Source of the DNA: a plasmid | Sequence record: NZ_CP154590.1 | Length of the DNA stretch: 64,000 nt | Direction: 5' to 3' (one strand) | Shown: piece after piece, positions 22,797 to 32,757 of the stretch | Layout of the letters: every line of letters starts with the position of its first letter | Position numbering within the stretch: position 1 is the stretch's first letter | Made by a program: the position numbers and the translations under genes | Notes under the pieces: model-generated | Told to the model about the DNA's origin: nothing | The model's input: the letters and a program-made list of their open reading frames with translations, nothing else | Databases searched by the model: none

Positions 22797-23137
22797 CGCG
22801 GGTGGCCGTTCCCGTGATAAAGCGAACGGCCTGACCTACAAGGAGGAGATGCAAGGGTGCAGCAGGAAGCCGCAGCGCAAGCGACCAGAGGGAGTGCGAA
22901 CGGGTGAGTGATGTGCCCTTGCATAGACTCCGGGTCGGGCCAGAGTCTTTCACGGGTAAGGCAGCACGCGGTGAGCAAAGTACTCAAAAGGTGAAAGCTG
23001 GAATTATCCGGCGGGCGAAGCCCGTTTCCTTTCTGGGGCCGCCAGGTGGCCCCAGTCAGGGCGGCGCTGTCGGGACGGCAGCTGCAAGCCCGTGCGCCGG
23101 AGGTGGAGAATTATGCCCGGGCGTGCCGGGCTGATAC

Positions 23138-23905: not shown

Positions 23906-24575
23906 CATAGTTAACTCCTTTGGTTTTGATGAGGACCAGTTGCATCTGGTCTGGAAGAAGCAGAGTTCGCGCTCTGCTTTTTTATTGCCTGTGATCCGGC
24001 AATCCTTTCTGCGTCGATGACGCAAGCCTTCAGTTGTTCCCCCCCGGCTCCTTCTGCCGTCTCTTTTTTCTTCGGCTTCCGGGCCAGAACGAAACGCCCT
24101 CATTGCGCAGACGATCCGGCAGCGCCCGAAAGAGGCTGCAAGGGTTAAGGACTTATTTTTTCTGCGTCACACCGGAAAAAATCAGGCCTTAAGCAGCTCT
24201 GCTGCGACCCTTTCAGACGCTTACGGGAGATGTCAGTCTGCATCAGCAATGAGAGGCTTTCGTGCGTGCGGAGGGGAAAAAGGACGGCAGAAGAAGCCGG
24301 TGAAGCCGGCTTTCCTTAGCGGACGCCAGCGGCGGCCAGTGAAAGCGGCGCGGCCGGAACGGTCGCAGCAAGCGCGGGGGTTGCCGTTCGACATCGGACA
24401 CTAGCGAATAGCCCGAAACCGCTTGCGGGTTCGGCGGAGCCTGGCCGGTGCGTCAGCAGCTGCCCGGCGGAGTGTGGCCTGACGACCCGGCGCGCTGGCG
24501 CGACGGGGAGCCGAAGGGGGCGCACCTTTCGCATTTTCCTTTCTCTTTTCGCTGTCAATTTCAACATCAAAAAAA

Positions 24576-24663: not shown

Positions 24664-24921
24664 ATGACAGGTTACGAGCTTCGACTCTGGAGAAAAGGCC
24701 TCGGCTGGAGCCGTGACAAGGCGGCTGAACAACTGGATATCAGCCTGCGAACCTATAAAGACTACGAAAACGCGCCCCGCCTGAAACGTAGCATTGCGCT
24801 GGCAACAGTGACGCTATCACTACAGGACCAGCTGCCCCGATTCAGACAGAACCGGACCAGCGGCGACAAAATGCGTGAAATGCTCAATACGATGATCGAT
24901 GATGCGATCCATCCGGATTAA
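24664..24921 (+). CDS. XRE-type HTH DNA-binding protein
   Basis: 85 aa; helix-turn-helix region SRDKAAEQLDISLRTYKDYE; RBS AAGGA; the only plus-strand gene in the leading region. Confidence 0.5.
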   Translation: MTGYELRLWRKGLGWSRDKAAEQLDISLRTYKDYENAPRLKRSIALATVTLSLQDQLPRFRQNRTSGDKMREMLNTMIDDAIHPD

Positions 24922-25264: not shown

Positions 25265-25756
25265 TCAGTCAATGGCCCGGTAAATCAGATCGCGTTCCGG
25301 GTGTTTGATGATGCTGATATAGTCCTTCAGCGCGTCCTGACGATCGACAAGCCCCTGGCAGACTTTCGCCATGCGCTCCCCCATTTCATAGACCTGCCAG
25401 TTCAGACGATTGAGGGACATCAGTGTCGCAATGATCCCGGCGGCCTCCGCTGAAACCTCAGCATCGAAGTAATTTCCCGGCATGGTCACGTGATACACCC
25501 CTTCCGGCGGTACCAGATACCCGGTCGGTCGGGTAATACAGTCCTCAGTCCATCCGTCAATTCGACCGCTGATACCACGCGGAACGGCAAAGTAACGCCA
25601 GAAACCTCCGTCATACTGGCTATGTACCTGTAACCAGGAGGCGACCAGCTGGTCGCCCTGCGGCGTGAAGAATAATTCAGGAATAAAGGCCAGACGCTGG
25701 CGCGGGTCAGTGATTTCAATGCTGGCAGTCGGGGCAATCATTGTGGAAGTCATCAT
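25265..25756 (-). CDS. antirestriction protein, ArdB/KlcA family
   Basis: About 163 aa from the MMTSTM start (RBS AAGGAAAG); family-like segments RLAFIPELF and YDGGFWRYF. Confidence 0.6.
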   Translation of the reverse strand: MMTSTMIAPTASIEITDPRQRLAFIPELFFTPQGDQLVASWLQVHSQYDGGFWRYFAVPRGISGRIDGWTEDCITRPTGYLVPPEGVYHVTMPGNYFDAEVSAEAAGIIATLMSLNRLNWQVYEMGERMAKVCQGLVDRQDALKDYISIIKHPERDLIYRAID

Positions 25757-25835
25757 TATTCGGCTTTCCTTAGTGGCCGCCAGTGGCGGCCAGTTTAAGT
25801 GGCGCTGCCGGAACGGCAGCTGCAAACGCTATATG

Positions 25836-26654
25836 TCAGGCGGCAATATCGAGGCCGTACATAAAGTCCTTCATTGCTTTCATGCGTCTCTGGAACTCCA
25901 GCTTGTTTTTAAAGTCGTTCCAGTAATAAACCGGGGTATACCGCGCACGATGCAGGTTCATTGTCAGCGTGTTGCCTGTGATAACTTCCGCCGGGATACC
26001 CAGTAACGAAAGCTGAACAAACGCCATATCGGCGGCGATCGGGTCAATATCGATACAGCTTCCGAACATGTGATTCGAATGGTCATATCCGGCATCTAAC
26101 AGGCATTCGGCATAGGCGATAATCATCCCCGCCGCGCCGCTCGCAGGGTCACTGACGGTGACAAAACCCTCGCGGCGGATCGACTCTTTCACGCCGGGCA
26201 TCATCATTCGTGCCATCATCGACTGAACGGAATACGGCGTGAAGTATTGCCCCATGCCATTAGATCCCAGCTCCAGCTCCATGAAAATCGCGCCGAGAAA
26301 ATCATGAAATTTGGCATCGAGCGCGCACACCATCAGGATGAAAAGATCATGCATTTTCTGAATATCTGCGGCCTCGTAGCGCTCGCAGACTTTGCGGCTA
26401 CGCTCGATATTCTCCGGTGTAAGAATCCGCGCCAGATCCAGCTCACTGGCAGAAAGCGTGATGAAATCGCAGAACACATCCCAGCGGCGCATATAACGCG
26501 CGGTATCGTTAAACAGGCGGATAAACTGCTTACGTGCTGCATCCACGTGCATCAATCCGATAATCGGCTTCTTTTTGGAAACCGGAACAATTGGAATAAC
26601 GTTGTCAGACTCACGCGCCTGGTTGAAAAATTCTGCAAAACTCAGTTGTGACAT
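25836..26654 (-). CDS. truncated HsdM-like N6-adenine methyltransferase-family protein lacking catalytic motif IV
   Basis: 272 aa; motif X (GQYFTP), SAM-binding motif I (SDPASGAAGM) and an HsdM-like FGSCIDIDP..MAFVQLSLLGI block, but the protein ends before any NPPF/DPPY motif. Confidence 0.5.
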   Translation of the reverse strand: MSQLSFAEFFNQARESDNVIPIVPVSKKKPIIGLMHVDAARKQFIRLFNDTARYMRRWDVFCDFITLSASELDLARILTPENIERSRKVCERYEAADIQKMHDLFILMVCALDAKFHDFLGAIFMELELGSNGMGQYFTPYSVQSMMARMMMPGVKESIRREGFVTVSDPASGAAGMIIAYAECLLDAGYDHSNHMFGSCIDIDPIAADMAFVQLSLLGIPAEVITGNTLTMNLHRARYTPVYYWNDFKNKLEFQRRMKAMKDFMYGLDIAA

Positions 26655-26696
26655 AGTTCCCCCTGCTTGCCGCCCCTTCAGGGGCGGCTCCGTGTA

Positions 26697-27056
26697 TCAG
26701 TGTGTTTTCTGGCTTTCAGGAATGAAGGTCGCTTTGACCTTCGCCACAATGACGGCGTGATTCAGGTGGCTGTAATCACGCAGACGGAAATAACGCTTGC
26801 CGCAGCGCACGAAAATATCAGTCACGTTCCCGCAATACATTTCCTGCATCATGAACGTTTCAGTGTCCTGCGCGGTGTCGCTACGCCAGTTCATTGGCGG
26901 CATCATCCCTGCCGCGTCATGGAACTTGTACACGTCGATTTCGACGGGTGCAGTGACAGCCGCTTTTTCGCGGGTCAGCCAGTAGGCGCGCTCGGCCTCG
27001 GCGGTCGCGTTCATGTCCAGCGTGTGGGTCGGTTCGGTCTGATATACGTGCATAAG
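26697..27056 (-). CDS. hypothetical leading-region protein (119 aa)
   Basis: Start MHVYQTEP with RBS AAAGGAG; the 323-aa ORF-track extension runs through a GC-rich repeat and is rejected. Confidence 0.4.
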   Translation of the reverse strand, partial: LMHVYQTEPTHTLDMNATAEAERAYWLTREKAAVTAPVEIDVYKFHDAAGMMPPMNWRSDTAQDTETFMMQEMYCGNVTDIFVRCGKRYFRLRDYSHLNHAVIVAKVKATFIPESQKTH

Positions 27057-27960
27057 GATCTCCTTTCTTTTAATCACATCACCCGTTGAGTTACGGGAGC
27101 CGCGGTTTTGACGTTTTGCGGGAACCTGCTGAAGTTTCCCGGGTTGTTTCACTTCACCCGTTTGAGAACCTTCGCCGCAGGTGCAGCACGCCACCGGCCG
27201 ACGCCGGAATCCGGGGCGGAAGCGCAAAGTTTTTACCTGGAAAAAGTTTTCGCTGGAGAGCGGCAGCGGCCCTGGATGACAAGGAGGACTGTGGCGTGAT
27301 TCAGCACCCAGGAGGAGGATCTCAAAGGGCGAAACGCACAACGGAGAAGACGAGCCGGGACCCGCCGCAACGGCGATACGCGGCAGCGTAGCGATGTTGC
27401 CCTGCAGAATCCCGTCGCCGGCGACGGGATGGTGAGAGCGGCGTGGCCGGAACGGCCGCAGCAAGCGTGGGGTTGACCTTCTCCATCGGACACTAGCGAA
27501 TAGCCCGAAACCCGCAGGGGTTCGGCGGAGCCTGGCGGGTGCGTTAAGCAGTTGCCCTGGCGGAGTGTGGCCTGACGACCTGGCGCGCTGGCGCGACGGG
27601 GAGCCGAAGGTGGTCGGGTTCTTCGCCTTTCTGGTTTGAAACAGCAAAAATCCGGGAGAAAATGGCACAGCTATCAGGGAAAGTGGTACAGAAGTGAGTA
27701 AAGAGAAACAGACGGCAGGAAGAAAGCGGAAGACGACTAAATGACCATAATGAGGACATAAACGGAGGGGAGGATGGGAGGCGCGCAGCGCCTCTCCCCC
27801 GCCCTTCCAGCTGGGCGCCCTGCAGCAGGTTGTTCATGCCAGGCCAGACAGGGAAAAGGGCCTCCCTGCGAACAGGGAAGCCCTTCTAAAAGCGCTTGCG
27901 GCAATGGTCCGACAACATCCGATACCCTGAATGGCGGGGGTTTCCCCCCGCCGGGGTTAG

Positions 27961-28119
27961 CTACTTAGCGGATTCGTAAGCCAGTATTGCAGCGACCTCC
28001 CGTTCTCCGTCCTTCAGCCTGATTTCGCAAAGCGATTTTCGGGTCAGGTATGTGAATGCCAGCAGTGTTAAACACACTATAAGCACACACCAGATAACGG
28101 GACTTCGCGGCAGTTTCAT
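27961..28119 (-). CDS. hok: Hok/Gef-family type I toxin
   Basis: Reverse-strand translation [52 protein letters not shown] (52 aa), almost identical in pattern to Hok/FlmA; RBS AAGGAG; absent from the ORF track because it is under 60 aa. Confidence 0.8.
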
Positions 28120-28179
28120 GGCCTTCTTCTCCTTGCCTTACGGCATCTAAGAGGCTATCCTGATGGTGTCGATTCATGC

Positions 28180-28270
28180 AGGGGCCTCGGTTAATGAAAA
28201 TTAACTGGGGCTTTTGTCTTTCTGCCTCACGACACAGGTACAAACCACCGGAACATCCTGAGGCAAAAAG
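28180..28270 (+). ncRNA. sok: probable Sok-type antisense RNA / mok overlap region of the hok locus
   Basis: Inferred from hok locus architecture only (antisense to the hok mRNA leader); boundaries not determinable by eye. Confidence 0.3.
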
Positions 28271-28350
28271 CCTCAAGCGCCACCGCCATTATACCGTTCA
28301 TCCCTCTTTCTGCCCAGGAATAGGCAGCTAACTGTCTTAATTTATCCTGC

Positions 28351-29783: not shown

Positions 29784-31772
29784 TCAGGCGGCTAATGCCG
29801 AGTGGTCAGTTTCAGTCTGGTTTTCTTCAATCGCTTTCGGCTGCGGAGCGCATAACCACGCAGGAACCCAGCAACTGTCTTTCAGACGATCTTCGGCAAG
29901 CTCGGCAGCATCGCCCTTCTTCATCTTCGCCGCATCGGACGCTGCCCCTTCCATTCCAGCCTCTTTCAGGGATTCGACAATCTGGTCATGCTTAACGCCT
30001 TTGAAATATCCGTCTTTGGTTGGATGCCACCAGTCGCGAAAGTTGAAATCGATCGCAGTCTCCAGCGCGTCAAGTTTACTTCGGGAGGTATGACCGTTAT
30101 CGCGAGTCTGAACACCGTCAACGGAACAGGCCGTACAAAACGCCATAAGAGACATGAGCACGCCACCATCCAGCGAGAAGAACGAGGTTAAATCCTGTCG
30201 CCAGCCCTCTGGCAACAGCGCCTCAAGACGCTCACCTTCGGTCCGGATTGCGGTATATGCTTTACCCTCCTTGCCCGACGGTGCATTCATGGTCTGTGAG
30301 TAATGACCTACAGTCACGCGAACACCAAATGGATTATCCTGCTCTCCACGCCCCGTAAAGACCTCAGCACACATACGCCATGCCAGCAGCGCCACGGCTT
30401 TGGTTGGCTGGTTCATCAACGCTGCCTGAACAGCAAGCGTCCTTTCAGACGACATTTTCAGCAGTTGCGGCGCGGTAACCCCTTCGGTGATATCTTTTTT
30501 TATCGAAGTCACCGCAGGTACAGGATCCTCCCCACTTTCCGTTTCTCCGTTCTCTTTTGTCGGAAGGTCTGCAATACGGCAGACACCGCGCTGAATGACC
30601 AGTTCGCCATACTGGTAGCTGACCACAACACCCGCAGAGGCTTTCATCCCATCCGTCCAGGCACGTTGTCCTGCTTCTTCCTGCATACGACAGATTTCGG
30701 CATCAAGCTCGTCAGCTTCATCACAGGCACTGTCAAACGTACTAAATTTCTCTTTCAGTTCATCCAGACGCGCCTGTTCTTCATCGGTATAGACGGTTTC
30801 TGGTTTTTCCAGCAGCAGGTAGTCTTGCCCGTCCTGACCATAACGACTTACCGTTTCTGGACGACCCATACTCCACGACCAGCCCTCGCTCAGTTCGTGT
30901 TGCAGTGCAATCGTGTCCAGTTTTTCCTGTACAAGGCGCTGAACCAGTACGCTGTCAGCCGTTCCAGCCCCCTCTTCCTTGGAAAACAAATCTTCACGAA
31001 CCACACCGCCAGCGGTTTCATATGCTTCACGACCCACAAAGAGAAAGGCTGAACTGGTAACAGAAATTTCGGTTTCTGTGATCGCACGTTTTAGTAAATG
31101 AGCCTGAACAGATCCCCACTGCGCGTAGACGCTGTCAAACACCTGAACCTGACGTTCCTGACTGGATTCAAGGCACAGAGCCTGACACTGCTCAACAGTG
31201 ATTTCATCCTGTGCCAGCTTATCCAGCAGTGCTGGGGCAAGGTTTGCCAGTTTCAACATGCGCTGAACATGGCGGGAACCATAGCCCAGACCATCACCAA
31301 TCTGCGCGGCGGTTTTGCCCTGCGCCGCCAGCTTACCAAAGGCCATAATTTGCTCGGCAGGGTGCATCGCCTCCAGTTCATTGTTCTCAGCGTAAGACGC
31401 TTCAACAGCCAACTCGTCACTGACGCACTTAACCGGAACCTGATAATCAGCACCAATACGTCCCGTCTCGCACAACAGATTCAGTGCGGTGAGACGTCTA
31501 CCACCTGCAGCAACTCCGGATTTGCCCTCCGGCAGCACGTGAACCACGAGGTTATGCAGAAGCCCGAGGTTTTCAATCGAGTTAGCCAGACGTTTAACAC
31601 TGTCAGCGGTGTAAGGGATAGTACGCACGTTCAGCGGAGATTTAATAAGATCGGACAGCGGAACGTATGTGATAACAGCGGAATCAAGCGCGCTTTTCAG
31701 TTCTGCGCTGATAACTTTATTCTTCGGGTTGGCCTTTTTGGCTGATTTTGCTTTAACATTTGCTACTGACAT
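29784..31772 (-). CDS. ParB-like nuclease-domain protein (leading-region YubM-like)
   Basis: 662 aa from MSVANVKAK (RBS GGAGG); N-terminal ParB/Srx-like box; size and position typical of F/IncI leading regions. Confidence 0.7.
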   Translation of the reverse strand: MSVANVKAKSAKKANPKNKVISAELKSALDSAVITYVPLSDLIKSPLNVRTIPYTADSVKRLANSIENLGLLHNLVVHVLPEGKSGVAAGGRRLTALNLLCETGRIGADYQVPVKCVSDELAVEASYAENNELEAMHPAEQIMAFGKLAAQGKTAAQIGDGLGYGSRHVQRMLKLANLAPALLDKLAQDEITVEQCQALCLESSQERQVQVFDSVYAQWGSVQAHLLKRAITETEISVTSSAFLFVGREAYETAGGVVREDLFSKEEGAGTADSVLVQRLVQEKLDTIALQHELSEGWSWSMGRPETVSRYGQDGQDYLLLEKPETVYTDEEQARLDELKEKFSTFDSACDEADELDAEICRMQEEAGQRAWTDGMKASAGVVVSYQYGELVIQRGVCRIADLPTKENGETESGEDPVPAVTSIKKDITEGVTAPQLLKMSSERTLAVQAALMNQPTKAVALLAWRMCAEVFTGRGEQDNPFGVRVTVGHYSQTMNAPSGKEGKAYTAIRTEGERLEALLPEGWRQDLTSFFSLDGGVLMSLMAFCTACSVDGVQTRDNGHTSRSKLDALETAIDFNFRDWWHPTKDGYFKGVKHDQIVESLKEAGMEGAASDAAKMKKGDAAELAEDRLKDSCWVPAWLCAPQPKAIEENQTETDHSALAA

Positions 31773-31839
31773 CGTTATTTCCTCCATTTTAATGATTGTC
31801 GCGTTCTGCGGAGGTGCATCTCCGCAGAACACCTTTCGT

Positions 31840-32175: not shown

Positions 32176-32757
32176 AAAACCCCTCTGGTCTGGTTTTCAG
32201 AGGCAAAGCCTCTCCTGCCGTCCTCTTTCTGGTGTTTTCACACACTGCGGAGGACCTTTCCGCGAGAGCGTAACGGGCACGGCCCGGTGAAGCTGTCCAG
32301 GATTAGCGGGAAATTTATTCCGGCTCGTCCGGAAAAAATTTGCTGATAAAGCCCCGGCGGTCCTGGCCAGCAAGACGGGTTGTGGCGGTATCAGCGACCG
32401 GAAAGGCACTCAGCAGGGAATGAACGCAGAGGAAGTGGCGGGAGAGAGCCGGCAACGTCAACAACGTTGCCCCTTACACCCCGGAACGGGGTGCATCGAG
32501 CGCAGGAACGGCGCGACAGGGCGGCGCGACCGGAACGGTCGCTGCAAGCCAGCCTTTGACGTTGCGACAGCCTGGGATGGAAACCCGCTGCCCGAAGGTT
32601 TACCGGAGGGCCGGGCAGAGACAGCGCAGCTGGCTCGGTGCGAAGCATGACAGCCCCGGTTCCCGAAGGGAAGTCGCCCGGGTAAACCAGCCCGTGGAAA
32701 AAAAGTATCTGAAAGCCCCGGTTTTTATCGTTCTGGTTATGGTTCTGGCCACGCGGT

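What the first reader, a model, noticed from the sequence alone, without database searches (positions are those of the whole stretch)
25836..26654. Truncated HsdM-like protein (SAM-binding half only) adjacent to an ArdB/KlcA antirestriction gene: candidate type I R-M decoy
The 272-aa product has the N6-MTase family motif X (QYFTP), motif I (DPASGAAGM) and the downstream HsdM-like block, but it terminates before catalytic motif IV (NPPF) and has no target-recognition interface. It sits in the leading region next to an antirestriction gene. It may bind HsdS/HsdR or the SAM pool and poison host type I enzymes rather than methylate DNA.
Basis: partly seen in the sequence, partly recalled or inferred. 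Interest (0 to 1): 0.7.

Follow-up and report, generated by a model that had tools for sequence, protein, structure and literature searches.

The report
Clamp-tethered half-methylase in plasmid leading region
This plasmid gene, labelled a DNA methylase in databases, encodes only the cofactor-binding half of a type I restriction-system methylase, probably attached by a flexible linker to a motif that binds the DNA sliding clamp, so it most likely protects or helps establish incoming plasmid DNA rather than methylating it.

Summary
ORF 25836-26654 (-) encodes 272 aa with motif X (QYFTP), motif I (DPASGAAGM) and motifs II-III. It has no (D/N)PP(F/Y). Pfam N6_Mtase matches only profile positions 23-121 of 311. 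A confident AlphaFold model shows a helical N-domain and only four strands.

It is not a one-off truncation. Full-length copies occur on more than 1,400 plasmids, and 548 clusters at 50% identity match at E<1e-30. Nearly all are 230-340 aa. The SAM-contact residues are near-invariant and motif IV is absent throughout. Type I M subunits are the closest full-length relatives.

The gene sits in a leading-region island, directly upstream of ArdB. That adjacency is not conserved. Relatives are fused to ArdC, to a KlcB piece or to a complete methylase.

New finding: 51% of representatives end in a canonical sliding-clamp-binding motif (QLSLF, QLALF...) on a disordered tail. The window's clade lacks it and instead has a conserved N-terminal MSQLSFAEFF plus linker.

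Best reading: a non-catalytic, SAM-binding HsdM-derived module, tethered to the clamp and acting on nascent plasmid DNA, probably against restriction. A plain HsdS-binding decoy or a SAM sponge is less likely. The mechanism is untested.

The parts
25836..26654 (-). Whole ORF, 272 aa plus stop: HsdM-derived SAM-binding half-methylase-like protein, annotated 'N-6 DNA methylase' (WP_053389747.1) in an identical plasmid
26625..26648 (-). Residues 3-10, QLSFAEFF: conserved N-terminal short linear motif resembling a clamp-binding motif (QLxLF / QLxLxL) and a PIP-box (QxxhxxFF)
   Evidence: In 120 close clusters: Q3 in 115, F6 in 120, A7 in 115, F/Y9 in 115, F10 in 114. Mutually exclusive with the C-terminal clamp motif of relatives. 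That it binds the clamp is inference.
26547..26624 (-). Residues 11-36: variable linker, predicted disordered
   Evidence: pLDDT 55-58. Column identity 0.61-0.78, against 0.9 or more in the core.
26253..26546 (-). Residues 37-134: helical N-domain related to the C-terminal part of the HsdM N-terminal domain. Family-conserved F61, D63, F64, Y93, and D118-x-L120-G121
   Evidence: Helices 37-126. PADLOC Type I MTase alignments reach into this region in relatives, e.g. P0221 22-200 matching model 85-266. hhalign to EcoKI HsdM starts at the DxxG helix. Conservation.
25938..26252 (-). Residues 135-239: SAM-binding half of the Rossmann fold. Motif X G135-Q-Y-F-T-P140, motif I D169-P-A-S-G-A-A-G, motif II D202/D204, motif III G227-N-T-L230, then an extra strand 233-239
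25839..25937 (-). Residues 240-272: invariant T240-P241 helix cap, W/F248, K/R251-L252, and a long C-terminal helix. This replaces the missing beta4-beta7 half. No clamp motif at this end in this clade
26659..26664 (-). Shine-Dalgarno-like GGGGG(A) 4-5 nt upstream of the ATG
   Evidence: read directly from the sequence
25265..25756 (-). ArdB/KlcA antirestriction gene directly downstream, probably the same transcription unit
   Evidence: PF03230 E=4.8e-14. Annotated start from the identical plasmid.
26697..27053 (-). orf118, directly upstream. No family match. A syntenic neighbour of the half-methylase in Enterobacterales only
27161..27329 (+). About 170-nt imperfect hairpin on the inferred transferred strand, roughly 100 nt upstream of orf118. 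Candidate single-strand promoter or priming signal for the orf118 / half-methylase / ardB / DUF957 block
   Evidence: Fold -47 kcal/mol, z=-3.2. Nested inverted repeats. Function not shown.

Best explanation
The gene encodes a non-catalytic, SAM-binding pseudo-methylase derived from the M subunit of type I restriction-modification systems. It keeps about two-thirds of the HsdM N-terminal helical domain and the cofactor-binding half of the Rossmann fold. It has lost motif IV, strands beta5-beta7 and the C-terminal HsdS-binding region.

The module belongs to a large family of short proteins carried by conjugative plasmids, and by a few phages. In that family the module is joined through a disordered linker to a beta-sliding-clamp-binding motif. 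The motif is C-terminal in most lineages. In this enterobacterial clade it appears to have moved to the N-terminus as MSQLSFAEFF.

Proposed action, all of it inferred:
1. The protein is made early in the recipient from the leading region.
2. It docks on DnaN clamps loaded during complementary-strand synthesis.
3. This concentrates a SAM-loaded M-subunit mimic on nascent, unmodified plasmid DNA.
4. There it interferes in cis with type I, and possibly other gamma-methylase-based, restriction complexes. The likeliest route is through the M-M or M-R contacts of the HsdM N-terminal region, which governs the choice between methylation and restriction.
5. It does not methylate DNA, bind HsdS or drain SAM.

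What is shown: the sequence and fold anatomy, family conservation, motif statistics, genomic context and fusions. What is inferred: SAM binding, clamp binding of the window protein, early expression, and the anti-restriction effect.
For: Anatomy:
- Pfam coverage is 23-121 of 311, and the same cut-off at about 116-121 holds in 20 other members.
- Two AF2 models show a four-stranded core.

Family:
- 1,442 plasmid records carry near-full-length matches, mostly on conjugative plasmids.
- 548 clusters at 50% identity match at E<1e-30, and nearly all are 230-340 aa.

SAM pocket under selection: in 124 sequences with 19% mean column identity, Q136 is present in 124/124, F138 in 123, T139 in 119, P140 in 120, E/D169 in 124, P170 in 120, G173 in 124, G175 in 114, D202 in 123 and N/D228 in 123.

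No motif IV anywhere in the family.

Clamp motif:
- 64 of 126 representatives have QLxLF or QLxFxF in the last 14 residues, and 38 end exactly at the C-terminus.
- The same pattern occurs in 2.9% of internal windows, and in 1.2 of 126 shuffled tails on average.
- Annotated plasmid proteins confirm it: Cupriavidus DDQLALF, Burkholderia DQMTLF, Phaeobacter DQLTLF, Pseudomonas AQLALL.
- The tail is disordered, with pLDDT about 35.
- The consensus and its usual C-terminal position are described in PMC4549789. An N-terminal precedent is Hda 6-QLSLPL-11 (PMC5397184).
- The N-terminal MSQLSF motif and the C-terminal motif are mutually exclusive: 0 of 6 against 64 of 120, p=0.012.

Anti-restriction and establishment company: a leading-region island running from umuDC through ArdA, ParB, PsiB/PsiA and hok/sok to oriT. 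ArdB is adjacent. Fusions exist to ArdC-N + metallopeptidase + CbtA-like, to a KlcB-like piece and to a complete methylase. Lar lies nearby.

The HsdM N-terminal ~150 aa hold the maintenance versus de novo decision and the sensitivity to Ral (PMC12707154).
Against: - Nothing here measures SAM binding, clamp binding, or any effect on restriction.
- The window protein's own motif (QLSFAEFF) is not a canonical QLxLF or QLxLxL, and about 45% of representatives show no clear motif.
- Type I families are too diverse for one protein-contact mimic to be broadly effective.
- The strict conservation of the SAM pocket is not explained by a pure contact mimic.
- The plasmid already carries ArdA and ArdB against type I systems.
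- No sigma-70 promoter was found, and the upstream hairpin is only suggestive.
Confidence: 0.4

Rival explanations
1. Clamp-directed establishment factor unrelated to restriction. The protein uses its clamp motif to occupy or modulate DnaN on the incoming plasmid or in the host. It might favour complementary-strand synthesis, or compete with Hda, translesion polymerases, MutS/MutL or RecBCD. The SAM-binding module would serve as a ligand-stabilised or metabolic-sensing body.
For: Clamp motif statistics. Neighbours act on DNA metabolism rather than on restriction: PsiB, PsiA, an SSB-type island, umuDC at the island edge, and a DNA pol III theta gene in the Serratia locus. Many mobile elements use the clamp (PMC4549789; titles listed). 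ArdB adjacency is not conserved.
Against: It does not explain why the module is specifically HsdM-derived. It does not explain the fusions to ArdC and a KlcB piece, or the proximity of Lar. No known clamp regulator has this fold.
Confidence: 0.2
2. The fragment binds HsdR or HsdS of host type I enzymes stoichiometrically, anywhere in the cell, and so poisons assembly of R2M2S.
For: HsdM ancestry and retention of part of the N-terminal domain. Anti-restriction neighbourhood.
Against: The HsdM C-terminal region needed for HsdS assembly is missing (PMC6158711). The decoy idea gives no role to the conserved SAM pocket or to the terminal clamp motif. Subunit contacts are family-specific in type I systems (PMC12707154), yet the protein family spans alpha-, beta- and gammaproteobacterial plasmids and Firmicutes phages.
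Confidence: 0.15
3. SAM-directed activity. The half-domain removes the cofactor that type I, type III and BREX systems need. It would do so by catalysing SAM breakdown (lyase- or hydrolase-like) on an exposed sulfonium, or by sequestering SAM or a SAM-derived signal such as SAM-AMP.
For: Near-invariant SAM-contact motifs despite loss of the substrate half. There are additional family-specific invariant polar residues: D63, Y93 and T240. The precedent of phage T3 SAM lyase as an anti-restriction and anti-BREX factor is from my own knowledge.
Against: No similarity to known SAM lyases. Sequestration is stoichiometrically implausible. Clamp tethering makes little sense for an enzyme acting on a soluble pool.
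Confidence: 0.08
4. It is still an active methyltransferase, for DNA or another substrate. It would complete its active site by dimerising, for example two copies on the two clefts of one clamp, or with a partner protein.
For: The SAM pocket is intact. Invariant T240-P241-x-[H/Y] follows the fourth strand where motif IV would follow beta4 if that strand were canonical. One relative is fused to a complete methylase.
Against: No (D/N)PP(F/Y/W) in the family. Only a 4-residue turn separates strands 3 and 4 in two models, so the fourth strand is most likely an antiparallel hairpin rather than beta4. T-P reads as a helix N-cap. No partner gene is conserved across lineages. The fusion in P0264 supplies its own complete catalytic domain.
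Confidence: 0.05
5. A decaying remnant of a type I hsdM gene with no function.
For: It is annotated as a methylase and is half the usual length.
Against: Intact ORFs of the same length occur in more than 1,400 plasmids and hundreds of divergent clusters, with motif-level conservation. The predicted fold is compact and confident. There is no hsdS or hsdR remnant nearby.
Confidence: 0.02

Closest known systems
HsdM, the methylase subunit of type I R-M systems (Pfam N6_Mtase PF02384; EcoKI, EcoR124I, PacII M)
   Same: A helical region with the DxxG helix, motif X GQ(Y/F)FTP, motif I (D/E)PAxGxG, a motif II acidic residue and motif III G(N/D)TL, in the same order. These are the best sequence and fold relatives.
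   Different: No motif IV-VIII, no beta5-beta7, no C-terminal HsdS-binding helices, and no hsdS or hsdR partners. About 270 aa instead of about 500. Carries a terminal clamp-type motif.
Hda (DnaA-inactivating AAA+ protein with an N-terminal clamp-binding motif)
   Same: The architecture of an extreme N-terminal QLS-type motif joined by a flexible segment to a nucleotide/cofactor-binding Rossmann-like domain, which confines an activity to clamp-loaded DNA (PMC5397184).
   Different: The fold and ligand are unrelated (AAA+ with ADP, against half-methylase with SAM). Hda is a host protein. Clamp binding of the present protein is unproven.
Orphan DNA methyltransferases of plasmid leading regions (e.g. 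M.EcoGIX-type, 'MTases' in Samuel et al. 2024, PMC11541004)
   Same: Same genomic niche, orientation and database label. Presumably the same selective pressure from host restriction.
   Different: Those enzymes have complete catalytic domains and protect by methylating. This protein cannot, so counting it as an orphan MTase is probably a misannotation.
Lambda Ral / Rac Lar restriction-alleviation proteins
   Same: Proposed to act through the HsdM N-terminal decision module of type I enzymes (PMC12707154). Lar genes lie near family members in two plasmids.
   Different: No sequence or fold relationship. Ral and Lar are about 60-70 aa and do not bind SAM or the clamp.
Catalytically dead methylase paralogues used as regulators (DNMT3L, METTL14); a comparison from general knowledge
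   Same: A methylase-derived fold kept for interaction rather than catalysis.
   Different: Those proteins keep the whole fold and mostly lose cofactor binding. Here the fold is halved and the cofactor site is the best-conserved part.
ArdC-type polyvalent proteins of conjugative elements (PMC5512222)
   Same: The half-methylase occurs as the C-terminal module of ArdC-N + zincin peptidase + CbtA-like proteins. This fits the logic of early-phase effectors.
   Different: In the window it is a solo protein. This module is not among those found by term search in that survey.

Membership tests
Gamma-class N6-adenine DNA methyltransferase / type I HsdM (PF02384) | Motif X (GxFFTP) and motif I ((D/E)PAxGxG) forming the SAM methionine/ribose pocket | tested here: met
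   G135-QYFTP-140 and D169-PASGAAG. Pfam E=2.7e-8. Near-invariant in 124 relatives.
Gamma-class N6-adenine DNA methyltransferase / type I HsdM (PF02384) | Motif II acidic residue and motif III G(D/N)xL contacting SAM ribose and adenine | tested here: met
   D202/D204 and G227-N228-T-L230. D202 in 123/124, N/D228 in 123/124.
Gamma-class N6-adenine DNA methyltransferase / type I HsdM (PF02384) | Catalytic motif IV (D/N)PP(F/Y/W) after beta4 | tested here: not met
   Regex finds none in the ORF, in 120 close homologues, or at the equivalent position in 150 representatives. The Pfam match ends at profile 121/311.
Gamma-class N6-adenine DNA methyltransferase / type I HsdM (PF02384) | Complete seven-stranded Rossmann fold (beta4-beta7, motifs V-VIII) | tested here: not met
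   Two AF2 models (pLDDT 90.9 and 83.9) have four strands and then helices. TM to full-length methylases is only 0.3-0.47.
Gamma-class N6-adenine DNA methyltransferase / type I HsdM (PF02384) | C-terminal region that assembles with HsdS; hsdS/hsdR genes alongside | tested here: not met
   The protein ends 32 residues after the last strand. Neighbours are orf118 and ArdB, with no hsdS or hsdR in the island. The requirement is stated in PMC6158711.
Gamma-class N6-adenine DNA methyltransferase / type I HsdM (PF02384) | SAM binding and methyl transfer | not testable with these tools
   Needs biochemistry or a methylome.
Beta-sliding-clamp (DnaN) clients with a clamp-binding motif | QLxLF / QLxLxL-type motif at a terminus | tested here: inconclusive
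   For the family: 64/126 have it at the C-terminus, against 2.9% of internal windows and about 1% of shuffled tails. For the window protein: the N-terminal QLSFAEFF is conserved but non-canonical.
Beta-sliding-clamp (DnaN) clients with a clamp-binding motif | Motif presented on a flexible, poorly conserved linker | tested here: met
   Residues 11-36 have pLDDT 55-58 and are variable. The relative P0153 has a tail of pLDDT about 35 before TQLSLF. Tails are 24-119 residues and rich in E/A/P/S/D.
Beta-sliding-clamp (DnaN) clients with a clamp-binding motif | Physical binding to the DnaN hydrophobic cleft | not testable with these tools
   No complex prediction or assay was available.
Known antirestriction families (ArdA/Ocr DNA mimics, ArdB/KlcA, ArdC) | Family domain (PF07275 ArdA, PF03230 Antirestrict, PF08401 ArdcN) or a strongly acidic DNA-mimic surface | tested here: not met
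   N6_Mtase is the only Pfam hit. pI is 5.9 with net charge -4, and the family median pI is 5.4. ArdB is the neighbouring gene, and ArdC-N is a separate domain in fusion relatives.
Leading-region early (zygotically induced) genes of conjugative plasmids | Located between oriT and the maintenance region, and oriented so that the transferred strand is the template | tested here: met
   The island runs umuDC, ArdA, ParB, PsiB/PsiA, hok/sok, this gene, ArdB, DUF932, then mobA/relaxase, all co-oriented toward oriT. The layout is the same in the Klebsiella IncFII(K) and Serratia plasmids. The orientation logic is from PMC9849209.
Leading-region early (zygotically induced) genes of conjugative plasmids | Single-strand promoter (Frpo-type hairpin) upstream, and expression before ss-to-ds conversion | tested here: inconclusive
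   A 170-nt hairpin lies at 27161-27329, z=-3.2. No promoter hexamers were identified. Expression is not testable here.

The most novel reading that the evidence does not exclude
A previously unrecognised class of plasmid and phage counter-defence protein: a SAM-loaded half of the type I methylase subunit that rides the replication clamp. It would protect nascent unmodified DNA in cis by subverting the methylate-or-cut decision of type I (and perhaps BREX or type IIG) complexes. This would be the first anti-restriction mechanism coupled to the sliding clamp. It would also mean that part of what surveys count as 'orphan methyltransferases' in leading regions are not methyltransferases at all.
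Probability: 0.25. Interest if true: 0.85.

Novelty: new variant of a known kind. Interest (0 to 1): 0.66.

Why it matters
- Leading-region genes decide whether resistance plasmids establish in new hosts. This gene is present, full length, on more than a thousand Klebsiella, Enterobacter, Citrobacter, Acinetobacter and Pseudomonas plasmids.
- It is routinely annotated and counted as a DNA methylase. Showing that it cannot be one changes how plasmid anti-restriction repertoires are tallied.
- The clamp-binding motif gives a concrete, cheap experimental handle: peptide-DnaN binding and motif mutants in conjugation assays.
- If it does act on restriction, it would link counter-defence to the moment of complementary-strand synthesis. 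It might also offer a route into the long-unexplained indirect mechanism of neighbouring ArdB/KlcA-type genes.

Tried and rejected
1. Direct sequence search of PDB chains with the single protein found nothing. The profile search gave only motif X/I matches.
2. I looked for a conserved partner gene that could supply the missing half. Upstream ORFs of the Cupriavidus, Acinetobacter and window loci are unrelated. orf118 is syntenic only in Enterobacterales. ArdB is absent downstream in the Klebsiella IncFII(K) plasmid. Partner idea rejected.
3. I tested whether KlcB contains this domain. It does not (hhalign probability 0.7%). Only a short KlcB-like piece is appended to one relative.
4. DNA-mimic idea rejected on charge.
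5. I considered T240-P241-x-[H/Y] as a degenerate motif IV. I judged it unlikely because of the 4-residue turn before the strand in two models and the helix-cap reading.
6. The ~190-nt GC-rich repeat (24336-24530 and 27430-27625) does not fold better than shuffles. It is not the hairpin element.
7. The sigma-70 promoter scan found nothing on the coding strand.
8. Literature searches found no paper characterising this family or a clamp-binding leading-region protein.
9. The AFDB fold library was unavailable. The BFVD search only showed further short uncharacterised phage relatives.
10. Frameshift or read-through into a downstream catalytic half is excluded, because the downstream sequence is a repeat element followed by ArdB.
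Full report
**1. Observation**

The window holds an ATG-initiated ORF at 25836..26654 on the minus strand, encoding 272 aa. An AGGGGG run lies 4-5 nt upstream of the start. CIDID (200-204) and GNTL (227-230) follow.

Pfam assigns N6_Mtase (PF02384, E=2.7e-8). Only residues 132-236 match, to profile positions 23-121 of 311. NCBIfam gives nothing significant.

The identical protein (WP_053389747.1) is annotated 'N-6 DNA methylase' on Enterobacter hormaechei plasmid p5-20710 and on Citrobacter plasmids.

**2. Context**

All neighbours are on the minus strand. In order of transcription they are:
- ParB-like (29784-31832)
- PsiB
- PsiA
- hok, with sok RNA (RF01794, 28117-28282)
- orf118 (26697-27053)
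- this gene
- ArdB/KlcA (25265-25756; PF03230, E=4.8e-14)
- DUF957
- DUF5983
- DUF932
- mobA and a MOBP relaxase

In the identical plasmid the island begins at umuDC and also contains ArdA. This is the leading-region anti-defence island layout described in PMC11541004. The genes point toward oriT, so the transferred strand is their template (logic in PMC9849209). No hsdS, no hsdR and no full-length orphan methylase is annotated in the island.

**3. A conserved short family, not a truncation accident**

- tblastn finds matches in 2,214 plasmid records. In 1,442 of them the match covers at least 80% of the query. Most are conjugative plasmids of Klebsiella, Enterobacter, Acinetobacter, Pseudomonas, Citrobacter and Serratia. 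Weaker partial hits probably include true methylases.
- 120 clusters at 90% identity, sharing 64-100% identity with the query, are all 270-276 aa.
- A profile search of 1.8 billion representatives gives 548 clusters at E<1e-30. The best 150 are almost all 230-340 aa and match profile positions ~40-260.
- PHROGs has the family as phrog_5696, function unknown (E=4e-70).
- Only 12 phage records carry it. BFVD contains a few short relatives.
- In every member tested, the Pfam match stops at profile position ~116-121.

**4. What is conserved**

I aligned 124 diverse members (mean column identity 19%). The invariant or near-invariant positions are the SAM-contact motifs of gamma-class amino-methyltransferases:
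- G135, Q136 (124/124), F138, T139, P140
- E/D169, P170, G173 (124/124), G175
- D202, D204
- G227, N/D228, L230

Also conserved are the DxLG helix (D118, L120, G121) shared with HsdM, and family-specific F61, D63, F64, Y93, T240 (124/124), P241, W/F248 and K/R251-L252. The assignment of these motifs to SAM contacts rests on established knowledge of M.TaqI and HsdM structures.

No [DNS]PP[FYWH] occurs in the 120 close homologues. Among the 150 representatives, the only genuine NPPF lies in a separate C-terminal methylase domain of the fusion protein P0264.

**5. Fold**

AlphaFold2 with the 124-sequence alignment gives pLDDT 90.9 and pTM 0.87:
- residues 1-36: low confidence
- residues 37-126: helices
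- strands at 165-169, 196-202, 222-228 and 233-239
- helices at 241-245 and 248-271

A second member, P0153 (36% identical), gives the same core.

Only four residues separate the third and fourth strands. The fourth strand is amphipathic. I therefore read it as an antiparallel hairpin on beta3 rather than the canonical buried beta4, and T240-P241 as a helix N-cap rather than a degenerate motif IV. On either reading the substrate-binding half (beta5-beta7, motifs V-VIII) is absent.

Fold searches return gamma-class methylases, but only partially:
- Foldseek: 2f8l, PacII M, BsaXI and HsdMs, with TM 0.30-0.47.
- PADLOC: type I MTase models are the top hit for all seven members tested. Alignments reach back into the N-terminal helical region, for example P0221 22-200 matching model 85-266.
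- hhalign to EcoKI HsdM aligns the DxxG helix, motif X and motif I.

The module is an HsdM derivative. It keeps roughly two-thirds of the N-terminal domain and the cofactor half of the catalytic domain.

**6. Fusions and neighbours**

- Three representatives (651-656 aa) are ArdC-N + zincin peptidase + CbtA-like + this module. PHROG 23459 is the same type.
- P0264 is this module followed by a complete, separate methylase.
- P0153 carries a KlcB-like piece (precomputed PF27190; BLASTP to R751 KlcB E=3e-4). KlcB itself lacks the module.
- The Klebsiella IncFII(K) and Serratia plasmids have the gene in the leading region, pointing at traM/oriT.
- Cupriavidus and Burkholderia have it beside PRTRC/ParB, with Lar nearby in Burkholderia.
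- Pseudomonas has it with Lar upstream and a C5-methylase downstream.
- Phaeobacter has it upstream of an ArdC-like gene.
- ArdB adjacency is specific to the window's plasmid group.
- No partner gene is conserved across lineages.

**7. The clamp-binding motif (new)**

Of 126 full-length representatives, 64 (51%) have a QLxLF or QLxFxF-type motif within the last 14 residues. In 38 of them it ends exactly at the C-terminus. The commonest forms are QLSLF (8), QLALF (5), QLDLF (5) and QISLF (4).

The same pattern occurs in 2.9% of internal windows. In shuffled tails it occurs in 1.2 of 126 on average, with a maximum of 5 across 200 shuffles. Several further tails are near misses (QMPLFA, GQLPLF, QTDLF).

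Annotated plasmid proteins show it too: Cupriavidus ...DDQLALF, Burkholderia ...DQMTLF, Phaeobacter ...GDQLTLF, Pseudomonas ...AAQLALL.

Tails after the core are 24-119 residues and rich in E/A/P/S/D. The tail is predicted disordered (pLDDT ~35), with a short terminal helix over TQLSLF.

QLxLF at a C-terminus is the consensus beta-clamp-binding motif (PMC4549789). Hda carries it N-terminally as 6-QLSLPL-11 (PMC5397184).

The window's clade lacks the C-terminal tail and ends ...GLDIAA. Instead it has an extreme N-terminal MSQ[LMI][ST]FAx[FY]F. This segment is conserved as strongly as the core: Q3 in 115/120, F6 in 120/120, F10 in 114/120. A variable, low-confidence linker follows. Related N-termini (MSQLSFDLL, MTQLTLDI) fit the hexapeptide form.

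The two placements are mutually exclusive: 0 of 6 against 64 of 120, Fisher p=0.012. I infer that the motif was relocated. For the window protein itself, clamp binding remains a hypothesis, because QLSFAEFF is not canonical. It does also fit a PIP-box-like QxxhxxFF pattern.

**8. Mechanism**

Shown:
- a compact, conserved HsdM-derived module with an intact cofactor pocket and no catalytic or target half
- a terminal clamp-type motif on a flexible tether in most of the family
- a leading-region niche
- fusion to anti-restriction and establishment effectors

Inferred:
- It binds SAM.
- It docks on DnaN loaded during complementary-strand synthesis.
- It acts in cis on nascent unmodified plasmid DNA.

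My preferred target is the type I decision machinery. The HsdM N-terminal ~150 residues carry the maintenance versus de novo choice and the Ral sensitivity, through M-M contacts (PMC12707154). The fragment keeps most of that region.

Canonical HsdS binding is unlikely, because the HsdM C-terminus is required for it (PMC6158711). The protein is not acidic enough to be a DNA mimic.

Confidences:
- non-catalytic SAM-binding HsdM derivative: about 0.85
- clamp client: 0.8 for the family and about 0.5 for this protein
- anti-restriction or establishment role: about 0.6
- the specific cis-acting M-mimic mechanism: about 0.25

The rivals are a clamp-directed replication or repair modulator, a free decoy, SAM breakdown or capture, a residual methylase, and a dead remnant. 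They are weighed in the rival section.

**9. Comparison and novelty**

The protein fails membership of the functional methylase/HsdM family on motif IV, the second half of the fold, and the HsdS interface. It meets none of the ArdA, ArdB or ArdC definitions.

It resembles Hda in architecture logic and Ral/Lar in proposed target. It is probably being miscounted among leading-region 'orphan methyltransferases'.

I found no publication on the family or on a clamp-binding leading-region protein.

I rate it a new variant of a known kind (plasmid early counter-defence or establishment proteins derived from R-M components). There is a real chance of a categorically new mechanism.

**10. Verdict**

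The specific HsdS or SAM-pool poisoning ideas are weak, and the clamp-tether feature redirects the hypothesis. Interest 0.66.

Noticed in passing
window 24044-24300 (+ strand fold): A very long imperfect hairpin of about 260 nt. The fold of 24000-24450 gives -120 kcal/mol, z=-6.7 against shuffles. It lies upstream (in transcription direction) of the DUF5983/DUF932 block. It looks like a single-strand promoter or priming element of the Frpo/ssi type, but no promoter hexamers were identified.
   Followed up: partly
window 27161-27329 (+ strand fold): A shorter imperfect hairpin of about 170 nt (-47 kcal/mol, z=-3.2), about 100 nt upstream of orf118. It may drive early expression of orf118, the half-methylase, ardB and DUF957.
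   Followed up: partly
window 24336-24530 and 27430-27625; short copies at 23023-23095, 25761-25833, 32515-32555: A GC-rich intergenic repeat family, 90-95% identical between the two long copies. One short copy fills the gap between the half-methylase stop and the ArdB start. It does not fold better than shuffled sequence. Function unknown.
   Followed up: partly
window 26697-27053 (-): orf118 has no Pfam or NCBIfam match. It is conserved just upstream of the half-methylase in the Klebsiella IncFII(K) plasmid (56% identity) and the Serratia plasmid (36-39%), but not in distant lineages. It may be a clade-specific partner or simply a syntenic leading-region gene.
   Followed up: partly
P0133, P0139, P0159 (651-656 aa); locus L011 566-2521: Polyvalent proteins with the order ArdC-N, zincin-like metallopeptidase, CbtA-toxin-like, half-methylase. 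PHROG 23459 is the phage/prophage equivalent. The CbtA-like middle domain in an ArdC protein is itself unexplained.
   Followed up: partly
P0264; locus L012 8001-9938: A 645-aa protein with the half-methylase at the N-terminus and a complete, separate methylase (NPPF at 565) at the C-terminus. It lies in a phage-like contig of small co-oriented ORFs. This suggests the half-module does something a real methylase cannot.
   Followed up: no
P0153; locus L013 7702-8709: A relative carrying a KlcB-like segment between the core and the C-terminal TQLSLF. It sits next to a YcaO/TfuA pair, a Schlafen-AlbA/AAA protein and an integrase, which looks like an integrated element with defence genes.
   Followed up: no
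window 27961-28282 (-): A hok-family toxin ORF (52 aa) with sok antisense RNA (RF01794, 98.6 bits) lies inside the leading region, between psiA and orf118.
   Followed up: yes
window 24664-24921 (+): The only opposite-strand gene in the block is an 85-aa helix-turn-helix protein, convergent with and abutting DUF957. Paired inverted repeats (24570-24595/24627-24652 and 24617-24636/24642-24661) lie just upstream of its start and look like operators. It may be a local regulator expressed only after the complementary strand is made.
   Followed up: no
identical plasmid NZ_CP030079.1, records 19086-41559 (L001, L010): The island carries ArdA, ArdB and the half-methylase, but no full-length orphan methyltransferase is annotated. 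The only 'methylase' label in the leading region belongs to a protein that cannot methylate.
   Followed up: partly
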